Source: Gammaproteobacteria bacterium
GTDB lineage: Bacteria > Pseudomonadota > Gammaproteobacteria > GRL18
Reading direction: 5' to 3'
DNA: 64,000 nt
Assembly: GCA_026994225.1 (NCBI GenBank)
Contig: JALWRI010000121.1
Span: 30,630-94,629 of the forward strand
Shown one piece after another: positions 6,875-40,141 of this stretch. Within the stretch, counting starts at the first letter, position 1; each line of letters opens with the position of its first letter. The notes under the pieces are model-generated. The model saw nothing but the letters and a program-made list of their open reading frames with translations. It ran no database searches and was not told the origin of the DNA. The position numbers and the translations under genes were made by a program.

Positions 6875-7399
6875 TCCGCCCGTACTAGAGGCAAAGTAGG
6901 AGATACAATAGCAAAGCAGAAAGAAATACAAGAAGAATCGCTGGAAAAATAACTTTGGAAATCAGCAGATAAACTTAGAAAAAATATTAATTCCGCTGAA
7001 TGCAAGCATGTTGTTTTGGGATTGATTTTTCTAAAATATATCTCTGATGCCTTCGAGGAGTTGTATGCCACATTAAAAGCGGGGGAAGGTGAATATGCGG
7101 GAGCTGATCCCGAAGATAAGGACGAATACAAAGCCGAAAATGTCTTTTTTGTACCACAAGATGCCCGCTGGTCGCACCTGCAAGCCCATGCCAAGCAACC
7201 CACTATCGGTAAAACCGTTGATAAGGCAATGGATGCCATTGAAAAGGAAAACACTTCATTAAAAGGCGTGCTGCCTAAAGTCTACGCCCGTCAAAACCTC
7301 GACCCAACCAGCCTGGGCGAACTGATTGATCTTATCAGAAATATCGCTTTAGGTGATGCTAAATCCCGTAGCGCCGATGTGCTAGGGCATGTGTTTGAA
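6875..7399 (+). pseudogene. hsdM: Type I R-M methyltransferase subunit HsdM, N-terminal fragment only (in-frame TAA at 6950-6952, catalytic domain deleted)
   Basis: '[39 protein letters not shown]...ADVLGHVFE' is the HsdM N-terminal domain. There is no plausible start codon, a nonsense codon is present, and the sequence switches to HsdS-like at about 7400. Confidence 0.8.
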
Positions 7400-8030
7400 C
7401 AAATGGCAGAAACGCTGTTTCGGCAGTGGTTTGTGATCGATGCGCGGGAGGATTGGGAGGAGAAGCCTTTATCTTTTTTTGGAGATATTGTTTGTGGTAA
7501 AACCCCGTCTAAAAAGAAACCAGAGTATTATCAAGGCAAAATACCATTTATAAAAATTCCTGATATGCACGGCAATAGTTATGTTTTTAATACAACAGAT
7601 ACTCTGACAGAAGAAGGTAGTAATTCACAAAAAAACAAGTTATTACCACTAAAATCAATATGTGTAAGTTGTATTGCTACAGTAGGGTTAGTTTCCTTAA
7701 CAACAAAAAATAGCCATACCAATCAACAGATAAATTCCATTGTTCCACATAAGAATGAATAATGAATATAGGTATTATTTGTTTTTACAGATGAAATCTT
7801 CATATAATTTACTACATGCTATGGCAAGTGCTGGAACAGCAACATTAAATTTAAATACTGGTAATTTTTCGAAAATAGAAATTCCACTACCTGATGAAAT
7901 AATATTGCAAGGGTTTCATAACGAAGTGGAACCATTATTTGATAAAATATATAAAAATCAAACCCAAATCCGCACTCTGGAATCCCTCCTGCCTAAATTA
8001 ATGTCAGGTGAAATAAGGGTGAAATTTTAA
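7400..8030 (+). pseudogene. hsdS: Type I R-M specificity subunit HsdS, distal half only, frameshifted near 7765
   Basis: '[10 protein letters not shown]...[24 protein letters not shown]...NQQINSIVP' (TRD). After a frame change comes 'GTATLNLNTGNFSKIEIPLP...LLPKLMSGEIRV', the conserved HsdS C-terminal helix. Confidence 0.8.
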
Positions 8031-8032
8031 TC

Positions 8033-8716
8033 ATGGAAAAATATCTAAATAAATATCGAACAACATCCACACGGCTGCAGAATTGGGATTATCGGTGGGC
8101 TGGGGCGTATTTTATTACCATCTGTACCCATAATCGCGTCCATTATTTTGGTGGAATTGATAACGAAAAAATGAAATTATCCAATATCGGTATCATTGCC
8201 GATATTTTGTGGTATGAAATAAAAAACCATGCCCGGAATATTGAATTGGGGGAATATATTGTCATGCCAAACCATATTCACGGAATTTTGATTTTGAATC
8301 ATGATGATACCGATACCGATACCGATACCGTAGAGACAAGGCATGCCTTGTCTCTACCATCACCATCACCATCACCATCACCATCACCATCACCATCACC
8401 ATCACCATCACCATCACCACAATCAAAAACAATAGGACAAAAACGATTTCAAAATCAGGGAAAAAATACCATTTCGTCAATTATTGGTTCGTACAAATCG
8501 GCGGTGACAAAACACGCCCACCGTTTGGGTTATGATTTTAAATGGCAACCCCGTTTTTGGGATCATATTATCCGCAATGAAGATAAATACCAACGCATTG
8601 CCCAATATATTATGAATAACCCCAAACAATGGGCGATGGATAAATTAAATAATGGCGTTGCTAATCAGGTGTTAGAAACATCAGCAAGATACAATCATGA
8701 GGAATGGATGATATGA
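8033..8716 (+). CDS. IS200-like HUH/Y1 transposase family protein (REP-associated tyrosine transposase, RAYT-like) with an internal repeat insert
   Basis: HUH motif 'MPNHIHGILIL'. Downstream Tyr region 'IIGSYKSAVTKHA' and 'RFWDHIIRNEDKYQRIAQYIMNNPKQW'. Starts 2 nt after the hsdS stop. Confidence 0.8.
   Translation: MEKYLNKYRTTSTRLQNWDYRWAGAYFITICTHNRVHYFGGIDNEKMKLSNIGIIADILWYEIKNHARNIELGEYIVMPNHIHGILILNHDDTDTDTDTVETRHALSLPSPSPSPSPSPSPSPSPSPSPQSKTIGQKRFQNQGKNTISSIIGSYKSAVTKHAHRLGYDFKWQPRFWDHIIRNEDKYQRIAQYIMNNPKQWAMDKLNNGVANQVLETSARYNHEEWMI
8306..8329. repeat. (GATACC)x4 microsatellite inside the RAYT-like ORF (encodes DTDTDTDT)
   Basis: Read directly: gataccgataccgataccgatacc. Confidence 0.97.
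8330..8357. repeat. 28-nt perfect palindrome GTAGAGACAAGGCATGCCTTGTCTCTAC (encodes VETRHALSL)
   Basis: Identical to its own reverse complement. Lies between the two microsatellites. Confidence 0.97.
8358..8419. repeat. (CATCAC)x10 microsatellite inside the RAYT-like ORF (encodes about (PS)10P)
   Basis: Read directly. Ten perfect hexamers from 8358 to 8417 plus a partial unit. Confidence 0.97.
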
Positions 8717-8780
8717 GCTAGTAGCCACCTTTTGAAATGGCTCCCGCCATCCTGAATTACAAAAAAAGAGAAAATTAAGC

Positions 8781-9776
8781 ATGCAAGATCAAATCGTTAT
8801 TTATCAATCTAAAGGAGGGCAGGCTCAAGTTGAACTTCGTTTGGAGCAAAACACTTTTTGGTTATCTCAAAAACAAATGGCTGTTTTATTTGACAAAGAC
8901 AGTGATACGATTGGTTTACATCTTAAAAAAATATATAAAGAAGGTGAATTGGATGAAAAGGCAACTACCGAGCAATACTCGGTAGTTCGTCAGGAAGGTA
9001 AGCGTCAGGTTAGACGCAACATTAAGCATTACAATCTCGATGCCATTATCTCCGTTGGCTACCGTGTCAATTCCAAACAAGGCACGCAATTTCGCATCTG
9101 GGCAACACAACATCTAAAAAACATTCTGATTCAAGGCTACAGCCTGCATCAACAACGCTTTGAACAAAACGCCCAAACCTTGCAACAAGCCCTGAAACTG
9201 ATTGAAAAAACCGTAAAATCGCCAGATTTAACGTTGAATGCAGGTCGTAGTTTAACCGAGATTGTCAGCCGTTATACGCAAACCTTTTTATGGCTACAAC
9301 GCTATGATGAAGGCTTGCTGGACGAACCCAAAGGGCAAGTAGGCGGAGATTTACCCAGCCCTGAGGAGGCAATGCAAGCCTTAATGACCTTAAAACAGGA
9401 TTTAATCGCTCGCAAACAAGCCACCGATTTATTCGCCAGACCCCGCAGTGATAGTTTGGCAGGTATTTTTGGTAATCTCAATCAAAGTGTTTTTGGCGAA
9501 GCAGCATACCCTACGATAGAAAGCAAAGCCGCCCATTTGTTGTATTTTGTGGTAAAAAACCACCCGTTTTCCGATGGCAATAAACGCAGTGGCGCATTTT
9601 TATTTGTCGATTTTCTCAATCGCAATGGACGATTACTCAATCAGTAAGGCGAGCCAGTGATTAATGATACAGGCTTGGCGGCGTTAAGCTTGCTGGTTGC
9701 AGAATCCGACCCCAAGCAAAAAGAAACGATAATTCATTTGATTATGCAGATGTTAAACAGGAAGGATGATGAATAA
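8781..9776 (+). pseudogene. RhuM-family N-terminal domain fused to a Fic/DOC domain, interrupted by an in-frame TAA at 9645-9647
   Basis: N-terminus 'HYNLDAIISVGYRVNSKQGTQFRIWATQ' is RhuM-like. Fic motif 'HPFSDGNKRSG' is present. After the TAA the same frame continues as 'GEPVINDTGLAALSLLVAESDPKQKE...' to the TAA at 9774-9776. Confidence 0.7.
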
Positions 9777-11801
9777 AATCACTGAAAATGCTATCGAAAC
9801 CTTCTGCATCGAACTACTGTAAAAGCAGGGGTACGAATATATCTACGCCTCTGATATTGCCCCAGATAGTGATAATCCGCAACGCAGCAGTTTTGAAGAT
9901 ATTTTATTAAACAGCCGTCTAACGGCTGCTATTGCCAGAATCAATCCAACGATTCCGCACGATGCCCGACAAGAGGCAATTAAAGAAATCAGTCGCATTC
10001 ATTCCCCCGAATTACTGAGTAATAACGAGACTTTTCACCGAATGCTCACCGAAGGGGTGAAGGTGAGCTACCAAAAAAACGGCAGCCAGCGCGGTGATCT
10101 GGTGTGGCTGGTGGATTTTACCAACCCACAAAACAATGATTTTGTGGTTGCCAATCAGTTGACGGTGATTGAAAACGGGGTAAATAAACGCTCTGATGTG
10201 GTGTTATTTATCAATGGCTTGCCGTTAGTGGTGATTGAGCTTAAAAGTGCTGCGGATGAAAACGCCACGATTAAATCCGCTTACCAACAACTGCAAACCT
10301 ACAAACAAGCCATTCCCAGCCTGTTTACTTATAACGGTTTGATGATTATTTCAGATGGTCTGGAGGAGAAGGCGGGTTCACTCTCGGCTGGACTCAGCCG
10401 TTTTATGAACTGGAAAACTGCTGATGGCAAGATCGAGGCCTCCCATCTGGTCAGCCAGTTGGAAACCCTGATTAAAGGGATGCTGAATAAAGAAACCTTG
10501 CTGGATTTGATTCGTCATTTTATTGTGTTTGAGAAATCCAAAAGCGAAGACCCCAAAACGGGCGTGGTGACGATAGAGACGGTAAAAAAGGGACAAGGCA
10601 TGCCTTGTCTCTTAAAAAATTGCTACAGGTTGCCTCAGGTGGGGTAATTTTTTCCACCATTCAAAAGTTCCAACCCGATGAAGGCAATGTTACTGGTAAA
10701 AAGGTGGTGTATGGTTTTGCTAAATATATGTGTGATGCCCTGCCGAATGCCACTTATTTAGGGTTTACAGGTACGCCAATAGAAAGCACCGATACCAACA
10801 CCTCCGCTGTTTTTGGTAATTATATTGATGTTTATGATATAGCCCAGGCCGTTGAAGATGGGGCAACGGTGTGTATTTATTATGAATACGCAAAAAGCCA
10901 AGGCAAAATGGACGCAGTTAGAAGCGTTAATCGGTAGTGAAAATCGCATTAAAAATATTGCTCAGGATATTGTCAGTCATTTTGAGCAACGCCGGGCCGT
11001 GTTTGAGGGTAAGGGCATGATTGTTGCCATGAGTCGCCGTATTGCCACTGATTTATACGCCCAAATCATCAAGATCAAACCTGACTGGCATTCCGATGAT
11101 CTGTATAAAGGCGTGATTAAAGTGGTGATGACCTCCAGTTCATCCGATGGTCCTGAAATTGCCAAGCACCATACCACCAAGGCACAGAGAAAAATGCTGG
11201 CAGATAGAATGAAACACCCTGATGATAAACTTAAATTGGTGATTGTGCGGGATATGTGGCTAACAGGCTTTGATGCCCCCAGTTTGCACACATTATATAT
11301 TGATAAGCCAATGAAAGGGCATAAAACCTGATGCAAGCGATTGCACGGGTGAATCGGGTTTATAAAGACAAGCCGGGCGGCTTGATTGTTGATTATTTGG
11401 GGATTGCATCCGATCTGAAAAAAGCCCTGTCTTTTTATTCCGATGCGGGCGGAAAAGGCGACTCGACTATTTTACAAGAGCAAGTCGTTGAACTGATGTT
11501 GGAGAAGTTGGAAGTGATTGCTCAGTTGTTTTATGGCTTTGCTTATGAACAATATTTTGCCGCAGATACTGCCCAAAAACTATCACTAATTCTAGCGGCG
11601 GAAGATCATATTCTAGGTTTGGAGGATGGCAAGAAACACTTTATGAATGAAATCATCGCTTTATCTAAAGTTTTTGCCATTGCCATACCCCATGAACAGG
11701 CAATGGATGTTAAAGAGGAAATCGCTTTTTTTCAGGCAGTAGAGGTGTTGAAAAAATTTGGTGAAAAGCAAATCACTCGATGTAAACATGGGATTGTCTG
11801 A
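9766..11801 (+). pseudogene. hsdR: Type I restriction enzyme R subunit HsdR, multiply disrupted
   Basis: 'MMNKITENAIETFCIELL*KQGYEYI' has an in-frame TAA at 9820-9822. 'VVLFINGLPLVVIELK' is the nuclease-domain region. Helicase motif I and the DEAH box are missing, while '[11 protein letters not shown]' and 'LGFTGTPIE' remain. Frame changes occur near 10610, about 10900 and 11330 ('GHKT*MQAIARVNRV'). The 3' end is replaced by a tnpB relic. Confidence 0.85.
10588..10613. repeat. Second copy of the RAYT-gene palindrome (AAGGGACAAGGCATGCCTTGTCTCTT) at the hsdR deletion junction
   Basis: The 18-nt core GACAAGGCATGCCTTGTC (10592-10609) is identical to 8335-8352. The 24-nt stretch matches 23/24. 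A6 runs flank both sides. Confidence 0.95.
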
Positions 11802-11986
11802 GTTGTGGCAGCACTGGTATTGATCGGGATATTAACGCCAGTGGCAAGATCCGGCAGCAGGGGATTTTGAAACCAAAGACGGCAGGTCTTATCGTTTTTG
11901 CTGATGGAGGCTTGGATAATTCCGGCACACCGCCGGTTGTTGCTAATAAAGTCAGAAGCCTTGCCTGTTAAGGCGGGGAGAAGTTA
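11786..11986 (+). mobile_element. IS200/IS605-family TnpB C-terminal relic with right-end-like hairpin
   Basis: The frame from 11786 reads 'TWDCLSCGSTGIDRDINASGKIRQQG...' (CxxCG...DRDxNA zinc-finger/RuvC-III region), with its stop at 11969-11971. A hairpin at 11959-11978 (gccttgcc/ggcgggg, with G-T pairs) follows. Confidence 0.6.
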
Positions 11987-13276
11987 CGGAATATCCAAAT
12001 CTAATTCAGGAGAAAGGGGTTTATTATCCTTTTTTTGTTGTTTTTCTTCTTCTTCTTGTTCTTTTAATGCAGCTTCCCAAGGATCTATGCTGTTATCTGG
12101 TGGAGTATCCCCCGCTTCTTTTTGTGCAGTAGCTTGTGCTTCTTCTTCTGCCTGCTCTTTTAATGCCGCTGCCCAAGGGTCATCCTCTGTTCCTTCTTCT
12201 GCTATACTGTTATTGTTATGGGCAGCTTGTTCTGAAAAGGCCTCTTGCCATAGTGCATCAGCATCCTCTTCTTGACTTTCAGTGGATGTATCTGCTACAA
12301 GCGTGTCTGTTTGAGTTGTTGCATGATGCTCTTTTTCTGCTTGCTCTTTTAATGCTGCCGCCCAAAGGTCATCTTCTGCCCCTTCTTCTGCTATATTATC
12401 ATTGTTATGAGCAGCTTGTTCTGAAAAGGCTTCTTGCCATAGCGCATCGGCATCCTCTTCTTCTGTGTTATCAGTACTTTCTGCTGTAATGTTTGTTTCT
12501 GTTTCTGTTTCTGCTACTATTTGGGTTGCTGGCTCTGAGCTAGCAATAGTATCAAATGTTTCTCCTACTATGGTCTTATCATCTACTAAGGATTCTTCTA
12601 TAGTACTTGTAGCAGCAGGAGTTGTGGGCGTAGAGGCAGTGGGGTCTATTTTTTGACGCAAGTGTAAGATAGCTTTTAATATTTCATTAGCTTGAATATT
12701 TTGTGTTTCAGGGTTAGTATGACCATATTCAGTTACCAGTGTTGTGAGTGTTTCTAATGCTTCATTAAGATGCTCATTGACATTATTATTATTTTTTTCT
12801 AATTGCTGTATTTGATACATTAAATTCATTTTTTCTTGATCTAATTCCTGGCATTGCTGAGATAATGCGGCTACTTCTGTTGCATTGGCACTACCCGATG
12901 TATTTTTAGTAATAGTAAAAAAATGATTATTCATGGTACTTAATTGCTTGCGCAAGGTAAGTAATGCTTGTGGATCACGATTGCGTTCTAAATAAATCTG
13001 ACTAAAAGTTTTAATAAAATCCGTTTCTACTTGTAATAACTTCTCACTCTCCTCATCAATATTTCCACTGTGATCATGTACCTCTTTTAATAATGTTTTA
13101 ATTTCTAATTTACGGTTATCATTGGTGAGATTAGTGATCTGGCTTAATTGATTGATGGCATCTAAATCTGCTTTTTTTTGACGTAAAACCCGGACAACGA
13201 TAATAATGGTAATAATGGCAAGAACCACTGCAATTTCACTGATAATAATTAATAAGCTAGGAATGGTTTCTGACAT
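11984..13276 (-). CDS. Membrane-anchored coiled-coil protein with an acidic C-terminal tail carrying five 'D-x-[LP]-W-x-x-A-[FL]-[KS]-E-Q' motifs
   Basis: 430 aa. N-terminal TM 'LLIIISEIAVVLAIITIIIVV', a Q/N/E-rich coiled-coil region and a repeat tail. The start overlaps the upstream vWA gene stop by 1 nt. Confidence 0.75.
   Translation of the reverse strand: MSETIPSLLIIISEIAVVLAIITIIIVVRVLRQKKADLDAINQLSQITNLTNDNRKLEIKTLLKEVHDHSGNIDEESEKLLQVETDFIKTFSQIYLERNRDPQALLTLRKQLSTMNNHFFTITKNTSGSANATEVAALSQQCQELDQEKMNLMYQIQQLEKNNNNVNEHLNEALETLTTLVTEYGHTNPETQNIQANEILKAILHLRQKIDPTASTPTTPAATSTIEESLVDDKTIVGETFDTIASSEPATQIVAETETETNITAESTDNTEEEDADALWQEAFSEQAAHNNDNIAEEGAEDDLWAAALKEQAEKEHHATTQTDTLVADTSTESQEEDADALWQEAFSEQAAHNNNSIAEEGTEDDPWAAALKEQAEEEAQATAQKEAGDTPPDNSIDPWEAALKEQEEEEKQQKKDNKPLSPELDLDIP
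12143..12460. repeat. Intragenic tandem duplication, period 189 nt (63 aa), about 1.7 copies
   Basis: 'EEDADALWQEAFSEQAAHNN..IAEEG.EDD.WAAALKEQAE' occurs at residues 273-314 and again at 336-378 of the 430-aa protein. Confidence 0.9.
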
Positions 13277-19182: not shown

Positions 19183-19269
19183 TGGTGCCGAGGGTCGGAG
19201 TCGAACCGACACTCCTTTGCAGGAACTGGATTTTGAATCCAGCGCGTCTACCAATTTCACCACCCCGGC
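19183..19269 (-). tRNA. tRNA-Leu (anticodon CAA), CCA encoded
   Basis: The reverse complement GCCGGGGTGGTGAAATTGGTAGACGCGCTGGATTCAAAATCCAG...GGTTCGACTCCGACCCTCGGCACCA has a cloverleaf with a long variable arm. The anticodon loop is TTCAAAA. Confidence 0.93.
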
Positions 19270-19398: not shown

Positions 19399-19429
19399 GT
19401 CAACTACCCCTAAGCTAAAGCCTTAGGGG
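19399..19429. repeat. Hairpin repeat GTCAACTACCCCTAAG-CTAAAGC-CTTAGGGG
   Basis: 8-bp perfect stem. The left flank 'AACTACCC' is shared with the repeats at 25892-25915 and 36262-36297. The 'GCTAAAG' loop is shared with 19713-19753 and 27051-27096. Confidence 0.7.
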
Positions 19430-19712
19430 CTTGGATCGTAAGATTTAGGATAGCAGATGAATACTGTAATAGGTGATTAGTCTAAGCCTTAAACTGGCTA
19501 CGTTGTTTAAGTGATAGCACCTTCGGGCCTCCCAGGTCCGTTGTGCTGCTTTTTAATGTTAAAAGACTAAAAGACCTCAACGGGTTGGTGCATTAAAATT
19601 GACAGGCTTTTACAACATTGACGATGGGAATCTACTGGTTTGTGTGTTCCAGATTAAATTTTTAATATTTAATATAAAAATACGCACTAATTTTAAAAAG
19701 GGTTAGCAGTGG

Positions 19713-19770: not shown

Positions 19771-21937
<2,167 letters not shown>

Positions 21938-25339: not shown

Positions 25340-25870
25340 AAAGATACAGGGCGCAGTCTCGCTCCTTCAGGAGCGAGTTAGCCCGTGATGTCAGGACGGT
25401 GCATTTTGTTATTGCACATACTTTTTGACCACGCTCAATGAAGCGCCACCCGTTGATATAATACAATAACTGGGTGACCAGAATTGCTTGCCCCAGTTAC
25501 GATCTGGGGATTGTTCAGCTTCCAGTCAGCAATGTGCTCAGTGCAGTGATACGGATAAAAAGAACCGTAAGAGCCAGTCTGAGTTCTTATGTTTAAAATG
25601 CGGGCATACAGACAATGCCGGTAATAATGCCTCAAAAGTAATAAAACAAAGAACCTTCGAATATTTACGCTCTAAAGCGTTCCTCAATGGGAAAAAAAAG
25701 CGTAAAATTTCCATTTGAAAAAAAGCGGTACAGGCGGTGGAACGACCGTCTTTAGATGGCAAAGGAGATGTAAGCCCGGAAAATCCGGCAACGGCTGTTG
25801 ATGCGTCAAACGAAAACAGAGTAACTTAATCACCCGGTATGGGTGATTAAGTTACTCTTTTAGTAGGCTC
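25340..25870 (+). mobile_element. Nested, degenerate IS200/IS605-family relics (right-end-like hairpin, then a TnpB C-terminal zinc-finger region with an in-frame TGA)
   Basis: Hairpin ctcgctcc-ttca-ggagcgag at 25358-25377. ORF 25488..25718 reads 'SSQQCAQCSDTDKKNRKSQSEFLCLKCGHTDNAGNNAS' (CxxC...CxxCGH..NAxxNA). The same frame continues past the TGA (25716-25718) to the TAA at 25827-25829. Confidence 0.65.
25818..25858 (+). other. 18-bp perfect stem-loop (AGAGTAACTTAATCACCC-ggtat-GGGTGATTAAGTTACTCT) followed by TTT
   Basis: Read directly. It spans the stop codon of the TnpB-like frame. It is either an intrinsic terminator or the subterminal IS200/IS605 hairpin. Confidence 0.7.
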
Positions 25871-38992: not shown

Positions 38993-40141
38993 ATGTCTGA
39001 TTGTTTAATTATTGGTGGTGGTTTAATTGGGTTACTGACGGCTAGAGAATTGCTCAAGTCAGGATTAAGTGTAACAATTTTGGATAAAAGCCAAATGGGA
39101 ACGGAGTCATCTTGGGCTGGTGGGGGTATTCTTTCGCCTTTATACCCGTGGCGGTATGAACCCAGTATTACTGCGTTAGCACAATGGAGTCAACAGCATT
39201 ATCCAGATGTATTACGACAAATCCAACAAGAAGCAGATTATGATCCAGAATTACTTTATAGTGGTTTATTATTATTAAATTTAGGTGCAGAAGCTCAGCA
39301 AGCAAACGATTGGGCAAAGCAGTATCATTATCAATTAAAAACCATAGCAGTAGAGCATATTCAGCGATATGAAGCAGGTATTGATGAACAAATAGTACAC
39401 GATGCGTACTTAATGCCAGATATTGCACAAGTGCGTAATCCCCGATTAATGCGAGCTGTTTATGCGAGTGTAAAAAGTTTAGGTGCAAAATGTGTTACTA
39501 ATACTACAGTGCAACAGATATTAACAAAAGACAATAAAGCGATAGGGGTAGAGACCAGGCAGGGAGAATTTTTAGCTAAACATATTGTCTTGTGCAGTGG
39601 AGCATGGACGGCTGAACTATTACAAGGTTGCGTGGATATTCCCTATATTGTTCCGGTTAAAGGTGAAATGATTGTTTTTCAGGCAAAGCCTGGGATTGTT
39701 GCACATATTGCGTTATCAGATGGACATTACCTTATCCCTCGTAAAGATGGACATATTGTGGTAGGAAGCAGTATTGAATATAGCGGTTTTAAAAAGGAGA
39801 TTAGCCAAAAAACCGGTAATAAATTACGTCATTTTGCTTGTCAATTATTTCCTTTATTAGAGCATTATCCCATTGAGCGTCATTGGGCAGGATTACGTCC
39901 AGGTTCTCTTTCAGGTATCCCATATATTGGTCAACATCCACAACTTGAACAATTATATATTAATACGGGACATTATCGTAATGGAGTGGTAACAGGTTTA
40001 GCATCGTGTCGTTTATTGGCAGATATTTTATTGGAAAGAAGCCCCGTTATTGATCCTGCTCCGTATGCGCTTAACGCAGAACGTTTAGTAAAAGATAGTA
40101 GTATGATAGAACCAGAAAAACGAGCAGATTTATTATTTTGA
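38993..40141 (+). CDS. thiO: FAD-dependent oxidoreductase, glycine oxidase ThiO-like
   Basis: 'CLIIGGGLIGLLTAREL' dinucleotide fold, 'SWAGGGILSP' and 'TGHYRNGVVTG', typical of ThiO/DAO. Confidence 0.6.
   Translation: MSDCLIIGGGLIGLLTARELLKSGLSVTILDKSQMGTESSWAGGGILSPLYPWRYEPSITALAQWSQQHYPDVLRQIQQEADYDPELLYSGLLLLNLGAEAQQANDWAKQYHYQLKTIAVEHIQRYEAGIDEQIVHDAYLMPDIAQVRNPRLMRAVYASVKSLGAKCVTNTTVQQILTKDNKAIGVETRQGEFLAKHIVLCSGAWTAELLQGCVDIPYIVPVKGEMIVFQAKPGIVAHIALSDGHYLIPRKDGHIVVGSSIEYSGFKKEISQKTGNKLRHFACQLFPLLEHYPIERHWAGLRPGSLSGIPYIGQHPQLEQLYINTGHYRNGVVTGLASCRLLADILLERSPVIDPAPYALNAERLVKDSSMIEPEKRADLLF

What the first reader, a model, noticed from the sequence alone, without database searches (positions are those of the whole stretch)
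8306..8420. Perfect 28-nt palindrome flanked by two hexanucleotide microsatellites, in frame inside a RAYT-like HUH transposase gene
Between the HUH motif ('NHIHGILIL') and the Tyr region ('GSYKSAVTKH') the gene contains three adjacent elements. These are (GATACC)x4, then GTAGAGACAAGGCATGCCTTGTCTCTAC (a perfect palindrome), then (CATCAC)x10. They translate as [17 protein letters not shown]-(PS)10P, and the frame is preserved. HUH/Y1 enzymes act on ssDNA hairpins, so a REP-like hairpin embedded in the enzyme's own gene is striking. From memory, related IS200-like ORFs often carry a palindrome at this position, but I cannot verify that here. The flanking microsatellites are not something I recognise. 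Both have a 6-nt period, so slippage would change linker length rather than frame. Hypothesis: the hairpin is the cognate substrate or recognition site of the encoded enzyme, and the repeats are by-products of nick/repair or a length-variable linker.
Basis: partly seen in the sequence, partly recalled or inferred. Interest (0 to 1): 0.7.

Follow-up and report, generated by a model that had tools for sequence, protein, structure and literature searches.

The report
REP hairpin inside its own transposase gene
A 28-base DNA hairpin of the kind that a domesticated transposase (RAYT) is thought to act on sits in frame inside a floppy loop of that enzyme's own gene, flanked by slippery six-base repeats; a 2018 paper already described this arrangement and lists this exact 28-base sequence, so this is one more example, not a discovery.

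Summary
Window 8306-8329 is (GATACC)x4, 8330-8357 is a perfect 28-nt palindrome, and 8358-8417 is (CATCAC)x10. All are in frame in a 227-aa HUH/Y1 gene (8033-8716).

The gene is a subclass 2.4 TnpA_REP, also called a group 4 RAYT (motifs NHIH, WQ, YIMNNP; best PDB match 4er8). The palindrome is a 'double-foot' GTAG REP.

Quentin et al. 2018 (PMC6006769) already reported that subclass 2.4 genes carry such REPs in frame between HuH and Y, together with short repeats. Their Table S1 lists this exact 28-mer.

My tests agree:
- 47 of 79 genome homologues carry a double-foot palindrome in the same loop.
- The arms co-vary (98.7% paired, 7 compensated pairs).
- The same DNA is read in two different frames, so conservation is on the DNA, not the peptide.
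- Palindrome type follows the protein clade.
- About 86% of 131 metagenome copies of the 28-mer lie away from any RAYT gene.
- A degenerate copy lies 2.2 kb downstream in the window.
- In-frame tandem repeats are 12-fold enriched in this loop, and their copy number differs between near-identical genes.

Corrections: the catalytic Tyr is Y192 (YIMNNP), not Y154, and the CATCAC copy number depends on the assembly.

Verdict: new member of a known kind, low to moderate interest.

The parts
8033..8716 (+). RAYT / TnpA_REP gene, subclass 2.4 (group 4), 227 aa, apparently intact
   Evidence: ORF. NCBIfam REP_Tyr_transpos E=8.6e-17 (61 bits, below the 80-bit cut-off). PDB 4er8 by sequence and by fold. 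More than 5900 homologues.
8273..8281 (+). HUH motif (H81-I-H83 within PNHIHG), on strand beta3
   Evidence: Invariant P79, H81 and H83 in alignment A1. Strand E81-88 in the model.
8297..8470 (+). Disordered beta3-alphaC loop (residues 89-146) that holds the three elements
   Evidence: AlphaFold2 shows no secondary structure for residues 89-146, with 10-residue-block mean pLDDT of 44-57 between residues 91 and 140. In homologues the loop ranges from 0 to 276 nt.
8306..8329 (+). (GATACC)x4 in-frame hexanucleotide array, encoding (DT)4
8330..8357 (.). Perfect 28-nt 'double-foot' REP: GTAG foot, 8-bp arm, GCATGC centre, arm, CTAC foot. Encodes VETRHALSL on either strand.
   Evidence: The identical 28-mer is listed as a subclass 2.4 double-foot REP in Quentin 2018 Table S1.
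8358..8417 (+). (CATCAC)x10 in-frame hexanucleotide array, encoding (PS)10. The copy number depends on the assembly.
   Evidence: Scaffold gap at 8358/8359 in a second assembly.
8543..8548 (+). W171-Q172, the 'WQ' motif of subclass 2.4 (GTAG-contacting region in E. coli TnpA_REP)
   Evidence: Invariant W171 and Q172. Aligns to WQ of 4er8. Subclass motif table.
8606..8623 (+). YIMNNP, the catalytic Tyr motif (Y192) on helix alphaD
   Evidence: Aligns with YIYINP of 4er8. Invariant Y192, I193 and N196. Helix 183-195.
10592..10609 (.). Second, degenerate copy of the REP core (GACAAGGCATGCCTTGTC; the match extends to ...TCTCT). It lacks both GTAG/CTAC feet, is flanked by direct TAAAAAA repeats, and sits at a break in a decayed hsdR.
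   Evidence: Intact HsdR homologues continue ...TVKKLAAYHQYY at this point.

Best explanation
What it is: the palindrome is a 'double-foot' GTAG REP, the short DNA hairpin family associated with subclass 2.4 TnpA_REP (group 4 RAYT) enzymes. One copy lies in frame inside the RAYT gene itself, in the disordered loop between the HUH strand (beta3) and helix alphaC.

Shown here: the element is conserved as DNA, not as peptide. It co-varies with the enzyme clade. It also occurs dispersed outside RAYT genes.

Inferred by analogy with the tested group 2 and group 3 enzymes: when the DNA is single-stranded the 28-mer folds into a 12-bp hairpin. The enzyme recognises the hairpin together with its 5' GTAG 'guide' and cuts and rejoins at a nearby CT or CA dinucleotide. 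That activity spreads or maintains the REP family. Because the element is a perfect palindrome with a foot at each end, either strand presents the same substrate.

Why the in-gene copy is tolerated: two of the three reading frames of the 28-mer are open (VETRHALSL and RDKACLVST; the third contains TAG), and the host loop has no length or sequence constraint.

The two hexanucleotide arrays: they are products of replication slippage or local duplication next to the hairpin. Selection filters them so that only multiples of three survive. The result is a hypervariable linker around a constant palindrome. Whether the in-gene copy has a function of its own is not known.
For: Family:
- Motifs NHIH, WQ and YIMNNP match the subclass 2.4 signature NH[IFV]H / WQ / YIxNNP.
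- The best PDB match is TnpA_REP bound to a REP hairpin.

Prior description:
- Quentin et al. 2018 report double-foot REPs inserted in frame between HuH and Y as a unique feature of subclass 2.4, plus short repeats in the variable domain.
- Their Table S1 lists this exact 28-mer.

Conservation is at the DNA level:
- 28-mers were picked only by their feet, with the interior unconstrained. They are 98.7% paired. Seven of eight variable pairs show changes on both sides (46 cells), and there are no G-T pairs. No shuffle out of 500 reaches the observed value, and shifted registers give 31-53% pairing.
- The same DNA is read as VETRHALSL-type or RDKACLVST-type peptide in different genes.
- Compensated arm changes alter the encoded amino acids (VEARHALPL, VETLHATSL, IETEHAPSL).

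Co-evolution: palindrome type clusters with the RAYT clade.

Dispersal:
- Of 131 exact copies in metagenome contigs, 8 are in a RAYT loop, 9 are within 400 nt of a RAYT match, and about 113 have no RAYT nearby.
- The 28-mer also occurs in IMG/VR contigs.
- Flanking REPs lie next to the gene in 20 of 79 loci.
- A degenerate copy lies 2.2 kb downstream in the window.

Loop: it is disordered in the model, and 'empty' loops of 0-11 aa exist in homologues.

Flanking repeats:
- Tandem repeats occur at 6.1 per kb in the loops against 0.52 per kb elsewhere. 55 of 58 arrays have a period that is a multiple of 3, and several units are duplicated half-palindromes.
- Genes with 92-99% identical cores differ in repeat number while keeping the palindrome.
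Against: - No subclass 2.4 enzyme has been assayed on a double-foot REP. Binding and cleavage are extrapolated from groups 2 and 3.
- The E. coli enzyme needs a bulged stem and loses activity when the stem is regularised (introduction of PMC8266576; also stated in the discussion of PMC3733652). A perfect 12-bp stem must therefore be recognised differently.
- The window gene is not flanked by REPs, and only one degenerate extra copy is present in 64 kb.
- In most homologue loci no other copy lies within 10 kb, so these are low-copy families.
- The NCBIfam and Pfam models score below their cut-offs.
- The slippage origin of the arrays is an inference. Tandem repeats are much commoner next to RAYT-associated copies (11/17) than next to other copies (20/114), which simple hairpin-induced slippage does not explain.
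Confidence: 0.85

Rival explanations
1. The in-gene REP is not a mere tolerated passenger. It is kept by selection as a cis element. It could be a linked 'seed' or master copy that guarantees the enzyme and its substrate are inherited together. It could also be a self-recognition site through which the enzyme acts on or regulates its own gene. In that case the flanking repeats would be scars of repeated action in cis.
For: - The arrangement is present in most of the family across phyla, always in the same loop.
- The identical 28-mer is found in genes only about 50-60% identical in protein.
- In many loci the in-gene copy is the only one within 10 kb.
- Tandem repeats are far commoner beside RAYT-associated copies than beside other copies (11/17 vs 20/114, Fisher p = 1e-4).
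- In L208 the REPs with large flanking repeats lie within 2 kb of the RAYT gene.
Against: - Some family members have an empty loop and carry REPs only beside the gene (L175, L189, L197, L199), so the in-gene copy is dispensable.
- Age alone, meaning an old insertion in an unconstrained loop, could explain the extra repeats.
- The samples are small (17 RAYT-associated copies).
- There is no expression or activity data.
Confidence: 0.2
2. The hairpin acts mainly in the mRNA. A stable stem inside the coding region would slow translation or control transcript stability of the RAYT gene, and that is why it is conserved.
For: - The RNA fold is strong (-25.7 kcal/mol, z = -6.2).
- REPs are known to affect mRNA stability and translation in other contexts (background cited in PMC3733652).
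Against: - The same 28-mer is mostly found away from RAYT genes, in varied contexts.
- No G-U pair occurs among 228 cells despite 46 double changes. That fits DNA pairing, or a true double-stranded palindrome, better than an RNA helix.
- The GTAG/CTAC feet are invariant, as expected for the DNA guide motif.
- No Rfam family matches.
Confidence: 0.07
3. VETRHALSL is a functional peptide motif of the enzyme, and the palindromy of its codons is incidental.
For: The peptide is highly conserved among the 120 best hits (76 strict matches).
Against: - The same DNA is read in another frame (RDKACLVST-type) in other family members.
- Compensated arm changes alter the peptide.
- Some members lack the motif altogether.
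- The region is disordered.
- The 28-mer also occurs in non-coding DNA and in other genes.
Confidence: 0.02
4. Assembly artefact: the palindrome and repeats arise from mis-joined reads at a contig end.
For: A second assembly of the same sequence breaks exactly at the palindrome/CATCAC junction (100 N). The gene caller made no call for this gene there.
Against: - Both sides of the gap are identical to the window.
- The same architecture recurs in scores of independent genomes and metagenomes, including isolate genomes, and is published.
- Only the repeat number is in doubt.
Confidence: 0.03

Closest known systems
Subclass 2.4 TnpA_REP with in-gene 'double-foot' REP (Quentin, Siguier, Chandler & Fichant 2018, BMC Genomics 19:475; equals group 4 RAYT of Bertels et al. 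2017)
   Same: The protein motifs are the same (NH[IFV]H, WQ, YIxNNP). The variable insertion lies between beta3 and alphaC. The REP has a 5' GT[AG]G foot and a 3' C[TC]AC foot and is inserted in frame between HuH and Y. Short DNA repeats are present in the variable domain. The exact 28-mer is listed in their Table S1.
   Different: Nothing essential differs. This copy comes from an unnamed metagenome organism with 36.5% G+C. It has unusually clean hexanucleotide arrays on both sides, lacks REPs flanking the gene, and sits inside a decayed type I R-M operon.
E. coli TnpA_REP with REP/BIME (group 2; PDB 4er8) and the group 3 enzymes of S. maltophilia and Marinomonas
   Same: They share the HUH/Y1 fold, a GTAG tetranucleotide at the 5' foot of a hairpin, and co-evolution of enzyme and REP. 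The group 3 REPs are also perfect palindromes.
   Different: Those REPs are extragenic, have a single foot and are high-copy. Those enzymes have no insertion in the beta3-alphaC loop. Their activity has been shown in vitro, which is not so for subclass 2.4.
Rickettsia palindromic elements (RPE) inserted in frame in protein genes
   Same: These are short palindromic repeats that land in coding regions without breaking the frame and add a peptide segment (mentioned in PMC3733652).
   Different: RPEs are longer (my recollection: roughly 100-150 bp), have no GTAG foot and no known dedicated HUH enzyme, and are not known to sit in the gene of their own mobilising enzyme.
IS200/IS605 TnpA with subterminal hairpins
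   Same: The catalytic fold is the same, and the enzyme recognises single-stranded hairpins with a 5' guide tetranucleotide.
   Different: In IS200/IS605 the hairpins lie at the element ends, outside the ORF, and the unit transposes as a multi-copy IS. Here the hairpin is inside the ORF, and no flanking ends are seen in the window.

Membership tests
TnpA_REP subclass 2.4 / RAYT group 4 | HuH motif NH[IFV]H | tested here: met
   PNHIHG at residues 79-84. H81 and H83 are invariant in A1. Signature taken from Table 1 of PMC6006769.
TnpA_REP subclass 2.4 / RAYT group 4 | W motif 'WQ' and Y motif 'YIxNNP' | tested here: met
   KWQPRFWDH (W171, Q172) and YIMNNP (Y192-P197). They align to WQ and YIYINP of 4er8.
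TnpA_REP subclass 2.4 / RAYT group 4 | Variable-length insertion between beta3 (HuH) and alphaC | tested here: met
   Model: strand 81-88, no secondary structure and low pLDDT over 89-146, helix 147-164. The loop is 0-276 nt in 79 homologues.
TnpA_REP subclass 2.4 / RAYT group 4 | Associated REP with a 5' GT[AG]G foot (canonical or double-foot), in or next to the gene | tested here: met
   GTAG...CTAC 28-mer inside the gene. It is identical to Table S1 entries for subclass 2.4. No REP flanks the gene in the window.
TnpA_REP subclass 2.4 / RAYT group 4 | HUH/Y1 (TnpA_REP-like) fold | tested here: met
   Foldseek top hit 4er8_A, E = 4.3e-7, followed by IS608 and ISDra2 TnpA.
TnpA_REP subclass 2.4 / RAYT group 4 | Enzyme binds and cleaves its REP as single-stranded DNA | not testable with these tools
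   In vitro data exist only for groups 2 and 3.
NCBIfam NF047646 REP_Tyr_transpos (equivalog) and Pfam PF01797 Y1_Tnp | Score at or above the curated cut-off | tested here: not met
   NCBIfam: 61.4 bits against a cut-off of 80. Pfam: 10.7 bits, or 14.4 with the loop removed, against 23. These models do not capture this subclass well; precomputed Pfam hits are listed for only 2 of the 120 best homologues.
REP family (dispersed repetitive palindrome) | Multiple copies dispersed in the same genome, mostly outside genes | tested here: inconclusive
   Only 64 kb of the source genome is available, and it holds one full and one degenerate copy. Across metagenome contigs about 86% of copies lie away from RAYT genes. 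Bertels 2017 reports about 14 occurrences per replicon for group 4 flanking 16-mers.
IS200/IS605 insertion sequence | Subterminal hairpins at both ends outside the ORF; several identical copies per genome | tested here: not met
   No flanking hairpins lie around 8033-8716. The window holds a single copy. The neighbours of homologues are heterogeneous and show no IS ends.

The most novel reading that the evidence does not exclude
The copy inside the gene is a selected part of the system, not a passenger. The RAYT gene with its internal double-foot REP would be a self-contained unit. It would carry its own substrate (a 'seed' for new REP families after horizontal transfer) and be acted on in cis by its own product. 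That action would drive the exceptional in-frame repeat turnover of the linker, and of REP-bearing neighbours such as the hsdM/hsdS genes in L208.
Probability: 0.2. Interest if true: 0.55.

Novelty: new member of a known kind. Interest (0 to 1): 0.25.

Why it matters
RAYT/REP systems are a leading example of a domesticated transposase that maintains a population of short hairpin repeats in bacterial genomes. Subclass 2.4 is the least studied branch and has no biochemistry.

This locus adds no new principle. It is a clean example, with a perfect palindrome, two perfect arrays and an intact gene, and could serve as a test substrate.

The comparative results sharpen the published description:
- The element is conserved as DNA.
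- It is read in two frames.
- It co-varies with the enzyme.
- Repeat enrichment is specific to the RAYT loop.

They also make one open question testable: whether the in-gene copy is functional or merely tolerated.

Tried and rejected
- Peptide-level explanation: rejected, because the same DNA is read in two frames and the arms show compensated changes.
- Known RNA family: none reaches its gathering score anywhere near the site. An E-value search of 8000-8750 gave only sub-threshold miRNA-model noise.
- Flanking arrays as outer arms of a longer palindrome: rejected in general. Upstream flank against reverse-complemented downstream flank gives a mean z of 0.39, and only 3 of 40 loci exceed z = 2. 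In the window z = 1.6. A few loci do extend the stem to 18-25 bp.
- Half-site search in the window: the hit at 39548 is a chance match inside a ThiO-like oxidase ORF and has no palindrome.
- Conserved synteny around homologues: none. The largest neighbour cluster covers 4 of 79 loci.
- Source organism: exact look-ups gave only unnamed metagenome records. I ran no further search on taxonomy.
- Repeat-number polymorphism in the source population: it could not be read directly. The only hint is the scaffold gap at the junction.

Full report
**1. The observation**

- (GATACC)x4 at 8306-8329.
- The perfect palindrome GTAGAGACAAGGCATGCCTTGTCTCTAC at 8330-8357.
- (CATCAC)x10 at 8358-8417.

Tandem Repeats Finder reports both arrays as 100% perfect. 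The repeat finder reports two 14-nt arms, fully complementary, with no spacer. All three elements are in frame in ORF 8033..8716, 227 aa. The 28-mer does not occur in shuffles of the window, and the region folds far better than shuffled sequence as DNA or RNA.

Two corrections are needed.
- The catalytic tyrosine, by alignment to E. coli TnpA_REP (4er8), is Y192 in YIMNNP, not the tyrosine in GSYKSAVTKH.
- A second public assembly of the same DNA has a 100-N gap exactly at the palindrome/CATCAC junction. The number of CATCAC units therefore depends on the assembly.

**2. The gene**

Curated models only half-recognise it. NCBIfam REP_Tyr_transpos scores 61 bits against a cut-off of 80, and Pfam Y1_Tnp scores well below threshold. 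The best solved relative is the REP-associated tyrosine transposase bound to a REP hairpin, both by sequence and by predicted fold.

The gene has more than 5900 homologues, largely from Bacteroidota and metagenomes. Its motifs (NHIH, WQ, YIMNNP) are the signature of TnpA_Y1 subclass 2.4, which equals group 4 of Bertels et al..

In the model, the HUH strand ends at residue 88. Residues 89-146 have no secondary structure and low confidence. Helix alphaC starts at 147. All three elements lie in that loop.

**3. What is already published**

Quentin, Siguier, Chandler and Fichant (2018, PMC6006769) state the following:
- Subclass 2.4 is associated with canonical and 'double foot' REPs (5' GT[AG]G and 3' C[TC]AC).
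- The variable insertion domain contains short DNA repeats.

Their Table S1 lists GTAGAGACAAGGCATGCCTTGTCTCTAC itself as a double-foot REP of subclass 2.4 genes, under entries AesuA01 AFL81528.1 and RsliA01 AEI46934.1.

**4. Independent tests on homologues**

Among the 120 best protein hits, 76 carry VET[RGT]HALSL and about 100 carry a looser version at the same place. Low-complexity runs flank it: D/N/G-rich upstream and Q/P/S-rich downstream. A few hits have two or three copies, and some have none.

I fetched 80 homologue loci from named genomes.
- In 79 of them both conserved halves could be placed, and every loop keeps the frame.
- 47 have a strict GT[AG]G...C[CT]AC palindrome in the loop, and more have degenerate ones.
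- Loops without one can be as short as 0-11 aa.

*Conservation is on the DNA.* I selected 28-mers only by their feet and left the interior free. This gave 19 distinct sequences that are 98.7% paired. Seven of eight variable pairs changed on both sides (46 cells), with no G-T pairs. No shuffle out of 500 reached the observed pairing, and shifted registers paired at 31-53%.

The same DNA palindrome is translated as VETRHALSL-type peptide in most genes and as RDKACLVST-type peptide in others. The third frame contains TAG and is never used.

*Palindrome type follows the protein tree.* The GACA[AG/GG/AC]GCATGC type, the GACGTTGCA type and the GACGCAAAATTTTGCGTC type fall into separate clades. Frame-1 cases are scattered inside frame-0 clades.

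**5. Copies outside the gene**

In the window, the 18-nt core recurs at 10592-10609, and the match extends to ...TCTCT. This copy has no GTAG/CTAC feet. It sits at a break in a decayed hsdR: intact homologues continue ...TVKKLAAYHQYY at this point. Direct TAAAAAA repeats flank it.

Elsewhere:
- A loose core pattern found many full double-foot copies in IMG/VR contigs. Only one of those contigs carried a RAYT gene.
Of 131 copies, 8 are inside a RAYT loop, 9 lie within 400 nt of a RAYT match, and about 113 have no RAYT nearby. 23 of those 113 lie inside stop-to-stop ORFs of at least 150 aa.
- In the genome loci, REPs lie beside the gene in 20 of 79 cases. Only 28 outside copies occur in 1.18 Mb, and most are within a few hundred bases of the gene.

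These numbers indicate low-copy families. That agrees with the roughly 14 replicon-wide occurrences Bertels et al. give for group 4 flanking 16-mers.

**6. The flanking repeats**

- Tandem repeats occur at 6.1 per kb in the loops against 0.52 per kb in the rest of the loci.
- 55 of 58 loop arrays have a period that is a multiple of three.
- Several units are duplicated halves of the palindrome, for example VETGHVETGHALSL, or NATSLPP repeated.
- Genes whose conserved cores are 92-99% identical differ in the number of flanking units while the palindrome stays constant.

The enrichment is not simply a property of the hairpin. A tandem repeat lies within 40 nt of 11 of 17 RAYT-associated copies, of 20 of 114 other copies, and of 8.9% of random sites (binomial p = 0.002 for other copies against random; Fisher p = 1e-4 for RAYT-associated against other).

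The two flanks are not inverted repeats of each other (mean z = 0.39). The downstream flank is 74% A+C. The palindrome itself is symmetric, so this asymmetry follows the orientation of the gene. That points to coding constraints rather than to the element.

**7. How it most likely works**

Shown:
- The element is a conserved DNA palindrome with invariant GTAG/CTAC feet.
- It co-varies with a HUH/Y1 enzyme and is dispersed outside that enzyme's gene.
- One copy sits in a disordered loop.
- The flanks turn over by in-frame repeat gain and loss.

Inferred from the tested group 2 and 3 systems: the single-stranded hairpin with its GTAG guide is the enzyme's substrate, and cutting occurs at a nearby CT or CA.

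Not known: whether the in-gene copy does anything. I put about 0.2 on the reading that it is a selected cis element (a linked seed copy or self-recognition site). The rest goes to a tolerated, old insertion in an unconstrained loop. The mRNA-structure, functional-peptide and artefact explanations are weak (see rivals).

**8. Context**

The RAYT gene starts 3 nt after a fragmentary hsdS. Upstream lies an HsdM_N/Methylase_S fusion fragment. Downstream lie a RhuM/Fic gene and four hsdR fragments. The gene is therefore embedded in a decayed type I R-M operon.

The same embedding recurs:
- Metagenome contig L208 reads hsdR-RAYT-hsdM/S. It carries the identical 28-mer in frame in the RAYT gene, in hsdM (frame 1) and at the hsdM-hsdS junction (frame 0). 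Each copy has low-complexity flanks.
- 9 of 80 genome loci have hsdR, hsdM or rhuM within their fetched flanks, most of them directly beside the RAYT gene.
- Otherwise the neighbours are heterogeneous.

**9. Verdict**

This is a new member of a known kind: a subclass 2.4 RAYT with an in-frame double-foot REP and a repeat-rich linker. Interest is about 0.25. The residual value lies in the open question of whether the in-gene copy is functional, and in the R-M operon association noted in passing.

Noticed in passing
window 10570-10630: A degenerate second copy of the REP core (GACAAGGCATGCCTTGTCTCT, no GTAG/CTAC feet) is flanked by direct TAAAAAA repeats. It sits exactly where a decayed hsdR departs from intact homologues (...TVKK|LAAYHQYY). 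A TAGAGAC half-foot lies 10 nt upstream, and CTAC lies 10 nt downstream of the extended match. It is unclear whether this is an insertion with target duplication or a rearranged REP.
   Followed up: partly
window 7016-11801; L208; L121, L133, L150, L154, L156, L159, L165, L182, L185: Subclass 2.4 RAYT genes recur next to or inside type I R-M operons. The window reads hsdM'/hsdS'-RAYT-rhuM-hsdR'. L208 and L156 read hsdR-RAYT-hsdM. L154 reads hsdM-RAYT-rhuM. 9 of 80 genome loci have an hsd or rhuM gene within their flanks, most directly beside the RAYT gene. That looks far above what I would expect by chance, but I did not compute a proper background.
   Followed up: partly
L208 3870-6758: A 962-aa HsdM-HsdS fusion ORF carries the same 28-mer twice in frame. 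It reads RDKACLVST inside HsdM and VETRHALSL at the M/S junction. Each copy is flanked by in-frame 3-, 9- or 30-nt repeats, as in the RAYT loop.
   Followed up: partly
window 8358/8359 (L321 1218-1317): An independent ENA scaffold of the same DNA has a 100-N gap exactly at the palindrome/CATCAC junction, and no gene call for the RAYT there. This is consistent with repeat-length heterogeneity in the sampled population, or with assembler failure at the palindrome.
   Followed up: yes
window 7016-8030 and 10042-11801: All hsd genes of this operon look decayed. One 248-aa ORF joins an HsdM N-terminal domain directly to an HsdS target-recognition part. hsdR is split into four ORFs totalling about 610 aa, against the roughly 1000 aa I would expect for an intact HsdR (from general knowledge, not tested here).
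   Followed up: partly
window 19399-19635 (+): A full-length HEARO RNA (Rfam RF02033, 98.5 bits) lies next to tRNA-Leu(CAA) at 19183-19269. It is followed by two ORFs whose sequences look like queA (19771-20838) and tgt (20786-21937), judged by eye and not searched. No IscB/HNH ORF of at least 100 aa lies between 19300 and 21500, so this HEARO copy appears to be an orphan.
   Followed up: partly
window 8300-8385 (RNA fold): In the RNA fold, the GAU of each upstream GAUACC unit pairs with the AUC of a downstream CAUCAC unit. Both arrays share the 6-nt period, so this extends the hairpin by a ladder of 3-bp helices. The DNA centroid does not show it. It may be coincidence.
   Followed up: no
window 25818-25858: A perfect 18-bp stem with a 5-nt loop (AGAGTAACTTAATCACCCGGTATGGGTGATTAAGTTACTCT). 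It is the longest hairpin in the window and is unrelated to the REP.
   Followed up: no
window 11984-13276 (-): A 430-aa acidic ORF contains long internal protein repeats (...EEDADALWQEAFSEQAAHNN...AEEG.EDD.WAAALKEQAE... occurs twice). A precomputed faint Pfam hit to FliN_N is on record for it.
   Followed up: no
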